From the NCBI GenBank assembly GCA_036386395.1, contig DASVVU010000350.1, positions 1 to 58,854 on the forward strand: DNA of 58,854 bases. The letters are read 5' to 3'. The translations under genes and the position numbers were made by a program. The stretch comes from Beijerinckiaceae bacterium (GTDB lineage Bacteria > Pseudomonadota > Alphaproteobacteria > Rhizobiales > Beijerinckiaceae). The stretch's first letter is position 1. Every line of letters begins with the position of its first letter. Below, piece by piece: positions 7,130 through 58,854 of the stretch. Under the pieces are notes generated by a model. It saw nothing but the letters and a program-made list of their open reading frames with translations, was not told the DNA's origin and made no database searches.

Positions 7130-7550
7130 GAAGCAGGCGCGCCAAATCCCCCCGGGGCTCCAGGGCGGGTCAGTCCGGCGATGTCAAAGAGCGAGGGAGA
7201 GGCGCCGAGGAACCGGCTCCAGGTCTGCAGAAGAAAGGAGCCGGTTCCCCGGCGCCCCACGGATCTCTCGCTTCCCCCTCTCGAGGGTCGCGATCTCAAC
7301 CGCTCCGAGCCCCACGGCTTGAGAGTCCCGTTGCCGGAACCCTAGCGCATCCGCGCGCCCGGCTCGTAGTGGCCGGGGGGTGGGCCTCGTCGGGCTTTCC
7401 CTCTCCGGCGCTTTCGCACCTTCAAGAGAAGCCCTGGATCGGAGCGGCCGCCCGAGTCGGACGCCACCGTGCGCCCGCCGCAGGACCGCCTCCCCTCCGC
7501 CTGCGTGATCCGGTGTACACGGCGGGTCCCTCGTCGGAGGGGAGTAGGCG
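7130..7550 (-). ncRNA. Candidate large structured non-coding RNA downstream of a LexA-box promoter (family not recognised; ends approximate)
   Basis: No credible ORF; stems at 7486-7551, 7407-7420 (GAAA loop), 7358-7377, 7322-7343 (GCAA loop), 7274-7287, 7201-7256; long-range complementary pairs; promoter immediately upstream. Confidence 0.6.
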
Positions 7551-7552
7551 GA

Positions 7553-7581
7553 CGAATAGAACATAATAGGAACATTGTCAA
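7553..7581 (-). promoter_or_regulatory. sigma70-type promoter with overlapping LexA (SOS) box
   Basis: Minus strand TTGACA (7581-7576), 17-nt spacer, TATTCG; spacer contains GTTC-N7-GTTC (plus strand GAAC-ATAATAG-GAAC, 7559-7573), the alphaproteobacterial LexA consensus. Confidence 0.8.
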
Positions 7582-7626: not shown

Positions 7627-8262
7627 TCAGCCCGCATGCAGCAGCAGCGCGCCCCTGCCCTCCTCCACGAAATCAGCCTCGACCAGGTAGCGCAACGGCC
7701 CCGCGGTCCTCGCGTCGAGGGGCCAGCAGGTGGTGAGGACGAGGCGGCGGCCATCCGCCAGCGGATCGATGCCGGAGGCGTCCCAGGGCGCCACCCTGGT
7801 CCCGGTCACGCGGAAGCGCATCGCGGCGCCGTCGCGGCGGGTGACGCGCAGCTCGTCGCCGACTCTGACATCGGCCAGGAACGCGAAATGGGTGTCCCGG
7901 TGGGCGGCGTAGACCGCCGTGCCGGGCTCGCCGGCCTCGGGCGTGCGCGCGAGGTGTCCCGGCCCGAAGGCGAGGGCCTGGCCGCTGCCGCCATGGAGGA
8001 CGACGGCGCCCTTGCCGAGCCGCGGCGCCTCGATGCGGGCGACCGGCCAGGTGTCGGCCCAGGACCAGGGCTTCACGTCCTGTCCGGTCCGCAGAGTCTC
8101 GGCGAAGGCGCGCTCCAGGAGCACCTGGGCAAGGAGCGCCTTCGCATGGATCCACAGGCCCTGTCCGCACAAGGTCAGGCCGAGGCCTGCGAGGAGCGCG
8201 GCGGCCGGGAGGACCGGCCGCCGCACCATCCCCGACACTCCTAGGCGCAGCGTCGAGGACAT
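7627..8262 (-). CDS. Class GN (proteobacterial) sortase
   Basis: N-terminal anchor, KPWSWADTWPVARI, LAFGPGH, catalytic His (AAHRDTHF), LTTCWP Cys and downstream Arg (LRY). Confidence 0.88.
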   Translation of the reverse strand: MSSTLRLGVSGMVRRPVLPAAALLAGLGLTLCGQGLWIHAKALLAQVLLERAFAETLRTGQDVKPWSWADTWPVARIEAPRLGKGAVVLHGGSGQALAFGPGHLARTPEAGEPGTAVYAAHRDTHFAFLADVRVGDELRVTRRDGAAMRFRVTGTRVAPWDASGIDPLADGRRLVLTTCWPLDARTAGPLRYLVEADFVEEGRGALLLHAG

Positions 8263-8267
8263 TGCCT

Positions 8268-10583
8268 TCAGGCTCCGAAGGCGAGCCGACGGCGGCCGAA
8301 GGCGGCCAGCAGGACGCTTCCGGCGAGGAGCAGGAGGCCGAGGAGCATCCGCAGCTCCGCGTCCGTCGCCGTCGCCGGGAGCGACACGCCCTGCGCCGGC
8401 ACGGCGGCGGACTTGCGCATGACCGGCCCGTCCGCAGTGGTATCCGCGGCGCTCGCGACCTGGATGCGCGAGAGGTCGGCGCGGTCCATCCGCGGCGCGT
8501 CGGCGCGGTCCGGCCGCGGCGCCGCCCCCGGCTTCTCGCCGAAGAGCTTGTCGAACTCCCAGCCGGCCGGGAGGTTGAGGGGGACCTCCGCCTTCGTCAG
8601 GCGTGCGCCGTCGGGGCGGCTTACGGTCTTGTCGACGGCGACGAGGCTCGTCAGGCGCGTCACGAGGTGATGGTCGAGGGCGAGTGCCAGGATCGCCTTG
8701 TCGGCCTCCTCCAGGGTCGTGCGGCGCAGCGTGCGGGCGACCTCGGCATCGGCGATCTTGCGCCGCGCCCACAGCTTCGACAGGCCCTTGCCCTCGGCGG
8801 CGCTCGCGAGCGGCAGGGTCACGCTCCAGGGCCGCTCGCCGATGTGGCCCTTGACCTCCACCGTGCCGGAGAGCGAGGGCACTTTCGCGGCGAGCACCAG
8901 CGGCTCGCCCCGGTAGAGATCGGGCAGCACTGAGGGCGTCGCGTCCGCTCCGCCCTCCGAGAAGGTCGCGGCGAGGTTCGTGACGGCGGGGCTCTCGAGC
9001 TTCTCGAACAGGGCCCGCATCCGCTCCTCGACCTGTTCCACGGAGCCGATGTGGGTGAAGGTGCCGCGCCCGATCTCGGCCGCGCGGGTCATGAGGTAGG
9101 AGTTCGGCGCCGAGCCGATGCCGACCATGAAGACGCGGGAGCGCCCGCGCATGGCCGCCATGGTGTCGAGCATCTGCTGCTCGTTGCCGATCGCTCCGTC
9201 GGTCAGGAACACGACCTGGCGCAGGTACGCGCCGTCGTTCGGGCGCGGATCGGCGAGCGCTGCCTTCATGGCGGGCAGCATCTCGGTCCCGCCCTTTGCC
9301 TGGAGGGCGCCGACGAAGCCCTTGGCCCGCGCGAGGTTCTCCGCATTCGCCGGCACCGCGTCCGAGAAGAGCACGTCCATGGTGTGGTCGAAGCGGATCA
9401 CGTTGAAGCGGTCCGCCGCCGTCAGGCGGTCGAGCCCGTAGAGGAGGCTCGCCTTGGCCTGCGTCATCGAGGTGCCGCCCATGGAGCCCGAGTTGTCGAT
9501 CACGAAGACGATCTCGCGCGGGCGGCGCTCCTCAGCCTGCCTGAGCGCCGGGGGCGTCACGAAGGCCAGCACGTAGTCGGCGTCGCCGACCCGCTCGCGG
9601 AAGAGCCCGATGGCGGGGGCGCTCGTCGCGGCCGGCGTCCAGGTCAGCTCGAAGTCCCGGTCGGCCGGGACAGGCCCCTCGGCGAGCTTGATCGTGCGCG
9701 CGTCGCCGTCGCCCTCGATCTTGACCGGATGGTGGTGGCTCTTGACCTCGCCGAGCGGGAAGCCGGCGGCAAGGCGCACCGCGATCGAGACCGGGTTCGT
9801 CGGCGCGTGCTCGGCGGGGTCGAGGACCGGCGGCTCGATGCGGTCGCGGTCCGGCACCGGGTCCGAGGCCGTGCCCCAGCCCCCGCTGCCGGGGGCGAAG
9901 TCGACGGTCTGCACCACCGGCTTCGGGTTGTAGCGCGGGGCCACGACGAGGGGTACGCGCAGCGAAAAGACGTCCGCCGACTGGCGCACCGGCTGCTGGT
10001 ACTCGATCTGCACCAGCACGGTCTCGCCCGGCCCGATGTTGGCGACGGCGTTGGTGAAGAGGTTCGGGCGCTCCTGCTCGAGGAGCGTCGCCTTGCGGCC
10101 TGCCGCCTTCGCCTCCTCGTAGACGGCCCGCGCCTCCCGGCGCTCCTTGATGTCGCCGACGACGATGCGGTCGCCGATCACCATCCGCAGCGTGTCGACG
10201 GCCCCGCCCTCCGGGAGGGGATAGACGTAGACCGCCTCGACCCAGCCCTCGGTCGGATTGTGGAAGACCTGGGTGATGCGGGCCCGGGCGGTCGGACCGC
10301 TGACCGTGAGGTCGACGTCGGTGCCGAGGCGGGGCGCCTCGACGAAGCGGCCGCTCTCGGTGCTGTGGAAGAGCAGGGAGCCGGCCTTCATCTCGCCCGG
10401 CGTGACGAGGATCTCGCCCGGTCCCCTCGCCTGCGCCCGCGGCGGCCCCGCGAAAATTGCCGCAATTGCGGCGACGATCAGCACCACGAGGTTCGCCGCG
10501 GCTATAATCGTACGCCGCCAAGCGGACCGCGTGGATAAAGAGAGCCCTTCGGGCCCTCCGGTTTCGACGAATGCTGTGCGCAT
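8268..10583 (-). CDS. Proteobacterial sortase target protein (VIT + vWA domains, C-terminal LPxTA sorting signal)
   Basis: VIT-like EAVYVYPLP, vWA MIDAS DNSGSM and FLTDG, C-terminal LPATA + hydrophobic helix + RRR; GAGGAG RBS before ATG 10583. Confidence 0.88.
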   Translation of the reverse strand: MRTAFVETGGPEGLSLSTRSAWRRTIIAAANLVVLIVAAIAAIFAGPPRAQARGPGEILVTPGEMKAGSLLFHSTESGRFVEAPRLGTDVDLTVSGPTARARITQVFHNPTEGWVEAVYVYPLPEGGAVDTLRMVIGDRIVVGDIKERREARAVYEEAKAAGRKATLLEQERPNLFTNAVANIGPGETVLVQIEYQQPVRQSADVFSLRVPLVVAPRYNPKPVVQTVDFAPGSGGWGTASDPVPDRDRIEPPVLDPAEHAPTNPVSIAVRLAAGFPLGEVKSHHHPVKIEGDGDARTIKLAEGPVPADRDFELTWTPAATSAPAIGLFRERVGDADYVLAFVTPPALRQAEERRPREIVFVIDNSGSMGGTSMTQAKASLLYGLDRLTAADRFNVIRFDHTMDVLFSDAVPANAENLARAKGFVGALQAKGGTEMLPAMKAALADPRPNDGAYLRQVVFLTDGAIGNEQQMLDTMAAMRGRSRVFMVGIGSAPNSYLMTRAAEIGRGTFTHIGSVEQVEERMRALFEKLESPAVTNLAATFSEGGADATPSVLPDLYRGEPLVLAAKVPSLSGTVEVKGHIGERPWSVTLPLASAAEGKGLSKLWARRKIADAEVARTLRRTTLEEADKAILALALDHHLVTRLTSLVAVDKTVSRPDGARLTKAEVPLNLPAGWEFDKLFGEKPGAAPRPDRADAPRMDRADLSRIQVASAADTTADGPVMRKSAAVPAQGVSLPATATDAELRMLLGLLLLAGSVLLAAFGRRRLAFGA

Positions 10584-10762
10584 GACCGGCTCCTCAGGCT
10601 GCATCACTTGCGAAAGCCCAAGGTGTTCTGTTCCATTCGGCCTGTGTCCTGCGACGGGCATGTTCGGGCTTGTCCGGCAACGGTCCGCCCGCAACCGCCG
10701 CGGTGCGCACGCCCGAGGCGGTTCCGTGAGGGTTTGTACGTGATGACGTGCGGAGAGCCGTG

Positions 10763-11533
10763 ATGGCGGGCGCAGCGGACACCGAGCTTTCGGCCGAGCA
10801 GAGCCGGACGGTCTCGGGGCTCGTGCGGGAGGAGCTCGCCCGCCGCCGCATCTCGCGCCAGCGGCTTGCCGACGACGCCAGGATCAGCCTCTCGACCCTG
10901 GAGAAGGCTCTCTCGGGCCGCCGGCCCTTCACCCTCGCGACGACGATCCGCCTGGAGGAGGCGCTCGGCGTCTCGCTCCGCAAGGCGAATGGCGCACCGC
11001 ACCTCGCCCCGCCGGCGCACGCGATCGTCGCCCCGGAAGAGCTCGGCTCCTACGCCCGCCCGGCCGTCGCCTGGATCGAGGGGGCGTACCTGACGCTCCG
11101 GCCCTCCTTCGGCGTGGCGGGCGGCATCTACGCCTACCGCACCGAGATCTTTTGGGACGAGAGCGGCCCGGGCTTAGGGTTTCGCGAATCCGAGCGCCTC
11201 GACGCCGCCTTCACCCAGTACGGCGCGGTGTCGGTCCCGAACCAGTCGGGCCACATCTATCTCGTCACGAACCGTCATGGGCAGTACCGGCTCATCACCG
11301 TGGCGCGGCCGACGATCAGCGGCGAGATGCACGGCATCCTCACGACCCTCCAGGCCGGCCAGGGCGCGCAGCTCACGCCGGTGGCGGCGCCGATCGCCTT
11401 CGTGCCCCTGCGGCGGCTCGCCGAGGAGCCCGCCTTCGGGCGCGTCGGTGCCGGCCACCCTTGCCACGAGCGCTACCGCGCCTACCTGAAGCGGACGGTC
11501 GAGGACGCCTTCGCGCGCTTCCTCACGGCTTGA
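10763..11533 (+). CDS. XRE-family helix-turn-helix protein with uncharacterised C-terminal domain
   Basis: N-terminal ISRQRLADDARISLSTLEKALSG HTH; divergent from the sortase operon. Confidence 0.7.
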   Translation: MAGAADTELSAEQSRTVSGLVREELARRRISRQRLADDARISLSTLEKALSGRRPFTLATTIRLEEALGVSLRKANGAPHLAPPAHAIVAPEELGSYARPAVAWIEGAYLTLRPSFGVAGGIYAYRTEIFWDESGPGLGFRESERLDAAFTQYGAVSVPNQSGHIYLVTNRHGQYRLITVARPTISGEMHGILTTLQAGQGAQLTPVAAPIAFVPLRRLAEEPAFGRVGAGHPCHERYRAYLKRTVEDAFARFLTA

Positions 11534-58491: not shown

Positions 58492-58854
58492 CGCGCGTCC
58501 CGCTTCTCCAATCCCGCTAATGGTGTCGACGGGTCCGTGCGGGCGGCGTAGCGGATGCGAGTCGTGCGTCGTCGTTCTCGCGGTCCTTGCCGGCCCGAGG
58601 CATGGGAGGGAGGAGATCGAGGGGTGCGCGGGGCGCACAGCGAACCCGATCGAAACTTGGGCCCGCCGGGCCCCGCGCACGGTGTTCTGCGTCCGCTGGC
58701 GAGGCCGGGTCTTCCCGGGAGCGTCGGGCGAGGGGAGCTCTGTCGTCTCCCTTGGCCGTCCGCGGCGTGGTCCCTCGCGCGGCGCCCGGACCGGGGTCAA
58801 GCGTTGTCCCCCGGCGCGGCACCGGTCCCGCCCCACGTCACGACGCCTCGCGAG

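What the first reader, a model, noticed from the sequence alone, without database searches (positions are those of the whole stretch)
7130..7581. Candidate large SOS-inducible structured ncRNA behind a LexA-box promoter
Seen: a minus-strand TTGACA-N17-TATTCG promoter (7581-7553) with a perfect GTTC-N7-GTTC in its spacer (7559-7573). It points into about 420 nt with no credible ORF or RBS, and the next gene is convergent. The transcript would be heavily paired: 5' stem 7535-7551/7486-7499; GGUGC-GAAA-GCGCC (7407-7420) inside a GGGCUU...AAGCCC stem; CCCGGC/GCCGGG (7358-7377); GUUCCG-GCAA-CGGGAC (7325-7340); CCCUC-GAGA-GGGGG (7274-7287); a ~20-bp stem at 7201-7256. The GNRA loops and G-U wobbles work only on the minus strand, matching the promoter. 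Known: GTTC-N7-GTTC is the alphaproteobacterial LexA operator. It does not resemble RNase P, tmRNA, 6S, SRP or any riboswitch I recognise. Inference: a stand-alone DNA-damage-induced large ncRNA, possibly an undescribed class.
Basis: partly seen in the sequence, partly recalled or inferred. Interest (0 to 1): 0.88.

Follow-up and report, generated by a model that had tools for sequence, protein, structure and literature searches.

The report
Multicopy pseudoknotted RNA with zinc-protein partner
This is one of 20 or more scattered copies of an undescribed, promoter-carrying element whose long-range base pairs are conserved across ten bacterial families; it likely makes a folded non-coding RNA that works with a small cysteine-rich protein, and only some copies, including this one, look DNA-damage controlled.

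Summary
The promoter, the LexA-type box and the hairpins are there as described. But the element is not stand-alone. The genome holds 31 pieces (15 with a 5' end, 21 with a 3' end), and relatives occur, often in many copies, in 10 families of the host's order. Across 44 diverse copies, six helices are 86% paired with compensatory changes in 28 of 33 pairs. A ribosomal-type boxA follows the pseudoknot in about half of the copies. Where a small unclassified four-cysteine protein is encoded, this RNA nearly always lies just upstream; most RNA copies lack the ORF. No Rfam family matches. The LexA box is real in a subset (8 of 78 promoters perfect, 0.03 expected) but is not family-wide, so 'SOS-inducible class' is only partly supported. 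Metatranscriptome contigs cover relatives' RNA bodies, without strand or ends. Best reading: a new class of mobile structured RNA with a small zinc-protein partner; function and the means of spread are untested.

The parts
7553..7581 (-). sigma70-type promoter, TTGACA-N17-TATTCG; predicted +1 about 7547-7545
   Evidence: Sequence. The same position holds a TTGAC-type -35 in the 72 full-length copies (selected with that anchor), with TA exactly 17 nt later in 37 of 72. In closed genome G008, identity between copies with different promoters starts 34 nt after the -35.
7559..7573 (-). LexA-type box GTTC-N7-GTTC in the promoter spacer
   Evidence: Host lexA promoter has GTTC-N7-GTTC and recA a one-mismatch form. 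Family: 8 of 78 distinct promoters perfect, 8 more GTTC-N7-GTGC at this same offset.
7136..7547 (-). predicted RNA, about 410 nt, from +1 to the conserved 3' motif
   Evidence: 5' and 3' limits from copy comparisons; covariation; relatives present in RNA libraries. Ends are inferred, not mapped.
7490..7544 (-). P1: 5' stem (7544-7536 with 7498-7490) whose large internal loop carries the 5' strand of the pseudoknot
   Evidence: Helix 1: 82% paired, 5 of 6 pairs with changes on both sides.
7527..7533 (-). pseudoknot PK1, 5' strand (pairs with 7198-7192)
   Evidence: cognate pairings beat swapped ones in 0 of 20000 permutations in each of three sets.
7485..7489 (-). long-range helix P2, 5' strand (pairs with 7263-7259), closing the central domain
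   Evidence: Helix 2: 89% paired, 3 of 5 pairs compensatory; swap test 0 of 20000.
7451..7484 (-). P3: conserved CCUG/CGGG base plus a strongly covarying hairpin
   Evidence: Helices 3-5 (95%, 87%, 73% paired).
7307..7388 (-). P4/P5 subdomain with the conserved 8-nt loop CACUACGA (7371-7364) on hairpin 7377-7358
   Evidence: Helix 6 (4 of 4 pairs compensatory); loop pattern in 42 of 72 copies and 21 of 23 held-out copies; the subdomain is absent from short forms.
7259..7263 (-). P2, 3' strand, after an A-rich linker
7199..7258 (-).
   Evidence: Helices 7-8 (86%, 78% paired; all 7 pairs compensatory).
7192..7198 (-). pseudoknot PK1, 3' strand
7182..7192 (-). boxA-identical motif GCTCTTTGACA
   Evidence: 8 copies in the genome: 7 in this element, 1 in the rRNA leader before 16S. 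Within one mismatch in 36 of 71 full copies scored. Nus-factor binding untested.
7136..7169 (-). terminal hairpin and conserved 3' motif; in several relatives this motif holds the start codon of the Cys-rich ORF, here decayed, and no such ORF follows
   Evidence: the profile search of this genome finds the protein at four other loci only.
58558..58854 (-). second family member in the same window (type B), cut by the contig end inside its 5' domain

Best explanation
The element is one copy of a dispersed, multicopy family with its own promoter and a conserved pseudoknotted fold, and it likely yields a non-coding RNA that acts as a folded molecule, probably bound by the small four-cysteine protein that a minority of copies encode. 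Shown: copy number, polymorphic insertion sites, the covarying helices, the boxA-identical motif, and the linkage of the protein gene to the RNA. Inferred steps: (1) each intact copy is transcribed from its promoter, under LexA in the copies that carry the box and under other control elsewhere; (2) P1, P2, P6 and PK1 bring the two ends together into a compact core that tolerates 0-300 nt of variable inserts; (3) boxA recruits the host's Nus factors, as in rRNA leaders, to help an untranslated transcript fold or escape Rho; (4) the ancestral unit was promoter + RNA + zinc-protein gene, and the ORF-less copies use protein made in trans; (5) copies spread at the DNA level by recombination in repeat-rich intergenic regions, not by an enzyme of their own.
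For: Structure: 86.1% of 1379 cells paired, 28 of 33 pairs compensatory, slid controls 44-51%; PK1 of 6 bp or more in 52 of 52 distinct pairs and 43 of 44 diverse copies; swap test also passed by 22 copies not used to build the model. G-U interchange (for example UG 23, CG 17, UA 4 at one pair) fits selection on RNA rather than DNA. ORF-less copies keep promoter and fold: 4 protein hits against 21 3' ends in this genome, 1 of 5 in closed genome G008, 0 of 23 intact motifs in the held-out set. Repeats have inserted between RNA and ORF in L319, L321, L331, L338. Linkage: all 18 real protein hits among 21 loci shown have the RNA upstream (14 whole, 4 cut by contig ends); 13 of 18 real hits among 19 loci do so clearly. 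RNA-library contigs cover the RNA body in 4 of 4 runs from 3 studies. Mobility: five 99%-identical copies at five sites with ragged ends, empty sites in relatives, unrelated neighbours.
Against: No activity, binding or transcript end has been shown; the RNA evidence is contigs of relatives, without strand, and DNA carry-over is not excluded. RNA-protein binding is inferred from linkage alone; two real protein hits (L345, L359) show no RNA upstream and two (L352, L355) are unclear. The boxA motif is lost or degenerate in 35 of 71 copies. Many copies are truncated, as expected of a decaying repeat. No mobilising enzyme was found, so step 5 has no positive mechanism; repeat-like motifs lie within 200 nt of 31 of 62 copies against 430 of 1836 gene ends in an unmatched control. 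Kin share changes, so the permutation counts are not probabilities.
Confidence: 0.5

Rival explanations
1. The RNA is a long cis-regulatory 5' leader that keeps the small Cys-rich protein (perhaps a stress toxin or regulator) untranslated until processing or a signal, as the structured leader of the SOS toxin mRNA tisB does; ORF-less copies are spreading remnants.
For: The protein gene almost always sits 0-250 nt after the RNA. In several lineages the conserved 3' motif is the start codon and the ribosome-binding site lies in the terminal hairpin. A boxA near a start codon represses translation of suhB and was tested on a toxin gene (PMC5725501, passages). All 7 copies from genus g64 have both an ORF and a perfect LexA box. 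tisB uses a leader pseudoknot (PMC7708055, abstract).
Against: Most copies lack the ORF yet keep fold and promoter in several families; this copy points at a convergent gene; repeat insertions separate RNA and ORF; the protein is not a short membrane peptide; no antisense partner was looked for.
Confidence: 0.25
2. It is a selfish non-autonomous mobile repeat; the structure serves its own mobilisation (as a guide, bridge or single-stranded DNA substrate for an enzyme encoded elsewhere) and gives the host nothing.
For: High, variable copy number, patchy distribution (8 of 150 order genomes with the RNA model), random intergenic sites and truncated copies, frequent contact with palindromic repeats.
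Against: No terminal inverted repeats, target duplications or fixed outer ends; no reverse transcriptase in 4 of 5 multi-copy genomes including closed G008, no Y1 transposase in 5 of 5; no longer fused form of the protein; one IS110 transposase among 86 neighbouring ORFs; G-U interchange points to RNA. Other recombinase families were not searched genome-wide.
Confidence: 0.17
3. It is a dedicated SOS-response ncRNA class, induced by DNA damage wherever it occurs.
For: Perfect boxes in 8 of 78 promoters against 0.03 expected, at two different positions (in the spacer here; abutting the -35 in genus g64), plus 8 one-mismatch boxes against 1.55 expected; the host uses this box (consensus in PMC9578287, passages).
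Against: 62 of 78 promoters lack a box within one mismatch and 0 of 23 further copies have one; 7 of the 8 perfect boxes come from one genus.
Confidence: 0.08

Closest known systems
Large orphan structured RNAs GOLLD, ROOL, OLE (PMC12286853, passages) and raiA motif RNA (PMC12968392, passages)
   Same: Large, covarying, pseudoknotted, a compact core with variable peripheral stems, function unknown.
   Different: No Rfam match to any of them. Those occur in Bacillota, Actinomycetota and (pro)phages, and raiA is a single-copy gene; this family is chromosomal, multicopy, in one alphaproteobacterial order, and was not found in phage collections.
HEARO / omega RNA with IscB of IS200/IS605 elements (recalled, not from a call)
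   Same: A structured RNA of a few hundred nt directly upstream of an ORF, mobile, with ORF-less copies.
   Different: The ORF here is 84-160 aa with no nuclease or transposase domain; no Y1 transposase in five host genomes; no Rfam match.
SOS-induced type I toxin mRNAs such as tisB (PMC7708055, abstract)
   Same: LexA-type promoter in some copies, long structured leader with a pseudoknot, small downstream protein.
   Different: Leader far larger and usually without its ORF; protein is a helical four-cysteine protein; toxicity and an antisense RNA are untested.
Non-autonomous intergenic repeats: REP/REPIN, RIME, Correia elements, MITEs (recalled)
   Same: Many dispersed intergenic copies, truncations, mosaics with palindromic repeats.
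   Different: No terminal inverted repeats or target duplications; long-range covarying helices and conserved loops over ten families; a conserved promoter at a fixed distance.
rRNA leader boxA / Nus factor system (PMC5725501, passages)
   Same: The 11-nt motif is identical to the host's rRNA leader boxA.
   Different: It lies near the 3' end of a short RNA, directly after the pseudoknot, and is lost in about half of the copies.

Membership tests
Any Rfam 15 family (incl. GOLLD, ROOL, OLE, raiA, HEARO, RNase P, tmRNA, 6S, SRP, ribozymes) | covariance-model score at gathering threshold | tested here: not met
   Window stretch at E<=5: only sub-threshold miRNA models; 12 loci at gathering: only 16S rRNA; 8 diverse loci at E<=0.5: none.
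tRNA / tmRNA | ARAGORN gene call | tested here: not met
   0 genes in the window.
LexA regulon (alphaproteobacterial) | GTTC-N7-GTTC overlapping the promoter | tested here: met
   Met for this copy and 8 of 78 promoters perfectly; not met for most of the family.
LexA regulon (alphaproteobacterial) | LexA binding and induction by DNA damage | not testable with these tools
   Needs EMSA and expression data.
IS200/IS605 derivative (HEARO/omega RNA) | adjacent IscB/TnpB nuclease or Y1 transposase available | tested here: not met
   Adjacent protein has no family match; no longer form among 7991 candidates (weak evidence by the tool's own note); no Y1 transposase in 5 of 5 genomes.
Retroelement (group II intron, retron) | linked or host reverse transcriptase; intron domain V | tested here: not met
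   No RT in 4 of 5 genomes; the one RT lies 3 kb from a copy behind two unrelated genes; no intron Rfam match.
MITE / IS-derived repeat | terminal inverted repeats and target-site duplication | tested here: not met
   Ragged ends, no duplication seen in five G008 copies or at three filled/empty site pairs (these pairs are only 70-87% identical, so short duplications could be eroded).
Type I toxin-antitoxin mRNA | toxic small protein | not testable with these tools
   No family or fold match.
Type I toxin-antitoxin mRNA | antisense antitoxin RNA | not tested
   No search made.
Nus-factor target | boxA identical to the host rRNA leader boxA | tested here: met
   within one mismatch in 36 of 71 copies.
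Nus-factor target | NusB/S10 binding and effect | not testable with these tools
   Needs binding or reporter assays.
Known protein fold for the Cys-rich protein | structural match | tested here: inconclusive
   Model pLDDT 79.7, pTM 0.45; best Z 3.7; no Foldseek rows.

The most novel reading that the evidence does not exclude
A new class of self-propagating ribonucleoprotein or ribozyme: the RNA's pseudoknotted core, with the small zinc protein, itself drives or guides copying of the element to new chromosomal sites without reverse transcriptase or transposase, and some lineages have wired it to the SOS response.
Probability: 0.15. Interest if true: 0.97.

Novelty: categorically new. Interest (0 to 1): 0.82.

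Why it matters
New classes of large, pseudoknotted bacterial RNAs are rare, and those known are mostly without a function. This one has strong covariation over ten families, natural minimal forms of about 200-250 nt, a candidate protein partner, a ribosomal-type boxA and, in some lineages, a LexA box, so it can be tested at once by probing, cryo-EM, binding and induction assays. It also poses an open question: how an element with no terminal repeats, transposase or reverse transcriptase reaches 5 to more than 20 copies per genome while keeping a promoter at each.

Tried and rejected
A 16-nt pattern scan of genome contigs gave chance hits only: none of the 80 loci listed held the element. A strict 3' pattern found nothing in 400 other genomes of the order, which proved to be a sensitivity limit. 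No match in viral contigs, phage records or plasmids. Protein profile: 0 of 300 class-level genomes; RNA model: 1 of 149; both score only 16-25 candidates per genome, so these are 'not found in those searched'. Protein family, Atlas and fold searches gave nothing usable. A first automated test of P2 picked the wrong linker in many copies and was weak (74 and 2485 of 20000); it was redone on alignment columns. PK1 could not be counted on the MAFFT alignment because its 3' strand is out of register there, so it rests on alignment-free swap tests with segments I anchored by motif. A possible further pairing of the 3' terminal motif with the P1 loop was seen by eye only and not tested. A group II intron domain V reading of 7365-7337 was dropped because it is not conserved. 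In RNA runs no contig lay on the promoter or on the ORF while a DNA run had some; lack of cover is not counted as evidence. The reverse transcriptase near one G166 copy looks like a separate retron-type gene (type judged from recall). Literature searches for a description found none; the library lacks most subscription papers, and the supplements of the motif-discovery papers (PMC5737381, PMC2864571), which list individual motifs, were not read.

Full report
Observation. The promoter, the LexA-type box and the hairpins are at the stated coordinates on the minus strand. The 423-nt stretch folds better than all 100 shuffles (z -3.77), but so does the opposite strand (z -2.89), and one such box per window is expected by chance. 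The case therefore had to come from relatives. Rfam has no family for it, nor for 12 and 8 further loci.

It is a multicopy element. The first genome search found about a dozen strong matches in the own genome, many starting at the -35 box. Using 72 full-length copies as queries gives 31 pieces: 15 with a 5' end, 21 with a 3' end, 5 assembled whole and 19 touching contig ends, one of them at the right end of this window. So the genome has at least about 20 copies. Six of 8 same-genus genomes match one query, with up to 26 matches. A covariance model of the 5' domain found it in three more genera (4 of 120 family genomes, 17 hits in G122). A 3' pattern gave 70 metagenome loci; the listing was cut, and 2 of the loci shown were chance hits. 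A broader model found copies in 8 of 150 genomes of the order and 1 of 149 of the class. With the protein-led search below, the RNA was seen in 10 families of the order (f1, f3, f5, f10, f15, f18, f27, f38, f41, f48).

Structure. On a sequence-only alignment of 44 diverse copies, helices picked from the alignment itself are 86.1% paired over 1379 cells, with changes on both sides in 28 of 33 pairs; no shuffle of 500 reached this and slid partners give 44-51%. Two long-range helices matter. P2 (7489-7485 with 7263-7259) closes the whole central domain (89% paired; swap test 0 of 20000). PK1 joins the internal loop of the 5' stem (7533-7527) to the segment after the last long hairpin (7198-7192): a helix of 6 bp or more forms in 52 of 52 distinct pairs and 43 of 44 diverse copies, and true partners pair better than swapped ones, also with one copy per genus (14 copies, 0 of 20000) and in 22 of the 23 copies found afterwards (one had no locatable segment; 0 of 20000; 17 of 22 reach 6 bp or more). 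Kin share changes, so these counts are not probabilities. P1, P2, P6 and PK1 abut one another and would form a compact core, with 201-467 nt between +1 and PK1. An 8-nt loop of pattern YAHUANGR is kept in 42 of 72 copies and is missing from the shortest forms. No reading frame is kept.

boxA. The 11-mer right after PK1 occurs 8 times in the genome: 7 times in this element and once in the rRNA leader before 16S; in G008 it lies 181 nt before 16S. It is within one mismatch in 36 of 71 copies and recurs in family f41. Nus factors act through boxA on rRNA and can repress translation of mRNAs (PMC5725501, passages). Binding here is inferred.

Promoter and SOS. The host's lexA promoter has GTTC-N7-GTTC and recA a one-mismatch form, the Caulobacter-type box (PMC9578287, passages). 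Of 78 distinct element promoters, 8 have a perfect box (0.03 expected from shuffles; 0 of 46 control promoter-like sites) and 8 have GTTC-N7-GTGC at the same offset as here (1.55 expected); 62 have neither. Seven perfect boxes are from one genus and sit at a different place, against the -35. None of 23 further copies, most from other families, has a box. SOS control is thus plausible for this copy and some lineages, not for the class. In closed genome G008 five 99%-identical bodies carry two unrelated promoters, joined at the predicted +1, so promoters are exchanged.

The protein partner. Some copies are followed by an 84-160-aa ORF with an invariant Arg and four invariant Cys. It matches no Pfam, NCBIfam or PHROG family, has a helical model (pLDDT 79.7, pTM 0.45) with no fold match, and no longer form was found. 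Zinc binding is inferred from the cysteines. Searching genomes with the protein alone (19 of 200 family genomes; 19 of 300 order genomes) led back to the RNA: of 21 loci shown, 3 were false protein hits and all 18 others have the RNA upstream (14 whole, 4 cut by contig ends); of 19 loci, 1 was false, 13 have it clearly, 3 are partial or unclear and 2 do not. The reverse does not hold: 4 protein hits in this genome, 1 of 5 copies in G008, 0 of 23 intact motifs in the held-out set. The window copy has none and faces a convergent ABC-transporter gene.

Mobility. Neighbouring genes are unrelated housekeeping genes; 1 of 86 scanned ORFs is a transposase (IS110) and none is phage-like. Three filled/empty site pairs were found, and the sortase gene upstream of this copy is followed by other genes in the two relatives that have it. 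Ends are ragged, with no terminal repeats or target duplication. Four of 5 multi-copy genomes lack a reverse transcriptase and all 5 lack a Y1 transposase. Palindromic repeat motifs lie within 200 nt of 31 of 62 copies against 23% of gene ends in an unmatched control. How copies spread is unexplained; DNA-level recombination is the residual inference.

Expression. Six of 24 runs holding parts of the stretch are RNA runs. Contigs of relatives in 4 of 4 runs laid (3 studies) cover parts of 7159-7505, and in 3 of 3 runs parts of the body of a second copy. Contigs show neither strand nor ends, and DNA carry-over is not excluded; this is modest support.

Interpretation. The fold is kept, with compensation and G-U interchange, in copies that have lost the ORF, in several families. 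That favours the RNA itself as the selected product, with the small protein as its likely partner (0.5). A cis-acting leader of the tisB kind (PMC7708055, abstract) is the main rival (0.25), a selfish mobile repeat next (0.17), and a family-wide SOS RNA least (0.08).

Comparison and novelty. It resembles in kind the large orphan RNAs GOLLD, ROOL, OLE and raiA (PMC12286853 and PMC12968392, passages) and in layout HEARO/IscB (recalled), but it fails the membership tests that could be run. Eight literature searches and three look-ups in this scan's findings found no description; a term search of PMC5737381 found nothing relevant in its main text, and motif-paper supplements were not read. I rate it a new class of structured RNA element, interest 0.82; the score is held down by the lack of any functional or stranded expression data.

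Noticed in passing
window 58558-58854, minus strand: A second member of the same family (type B), cut by the contig end; its start-codon motif is decayed.
   Followed up: partly
promoters of the 72 full-length copies: A second, palindrome-like motif (TAGGAA-N3/4-TTCCTA consensus) lies in the spacer or just before the -35 in 21-22 of 67 promoter sets at 3 or fewer mismatches (about 1 expected); partly confounded with the -10 and -35 letters. It may be the operator of another repressor.
   Followed up: partly
L370-L397 (families f5, f18, f41): Many distant copies use a different promoter type, with CTTATCCCC or CCTAGAC in place of TTGACA and a TANACT -10.
   Followed up: no
L292: A promoter joined directly to the 3' helix end: an internal deletion of nearly the whole RNA, starting near the predicted +1.
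   Followed up: no
G122 loci L209-L236; genus g64 loci L317, L318, L322: Natural minimal forms of about 200-250 nt that keep P1, P2, P3, P6 and PK1 but lack the conserved-loop subdomain; good targets for structure work.
   Followed up: partly
L402:2223-3185, minus strand (G166:C1): A retron-type reverse transcriptase gene flanked by two unknown ORFs, 3 kb from an element copy; probably a separate defence cassette.
   Followed up: partly
window 7627-10694 (minus) and 10748-11533 (plus): Sortase with a VIT/vWA sortase-target protein and a divergent XRE-type regulator; the pair is conserved in G003 and G007.
   Followed up: no
G000:C112 and L193: The rRNA operon leader has two tandem promoters, each followed by its own structured segment, before boxA.
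   Followed up: no
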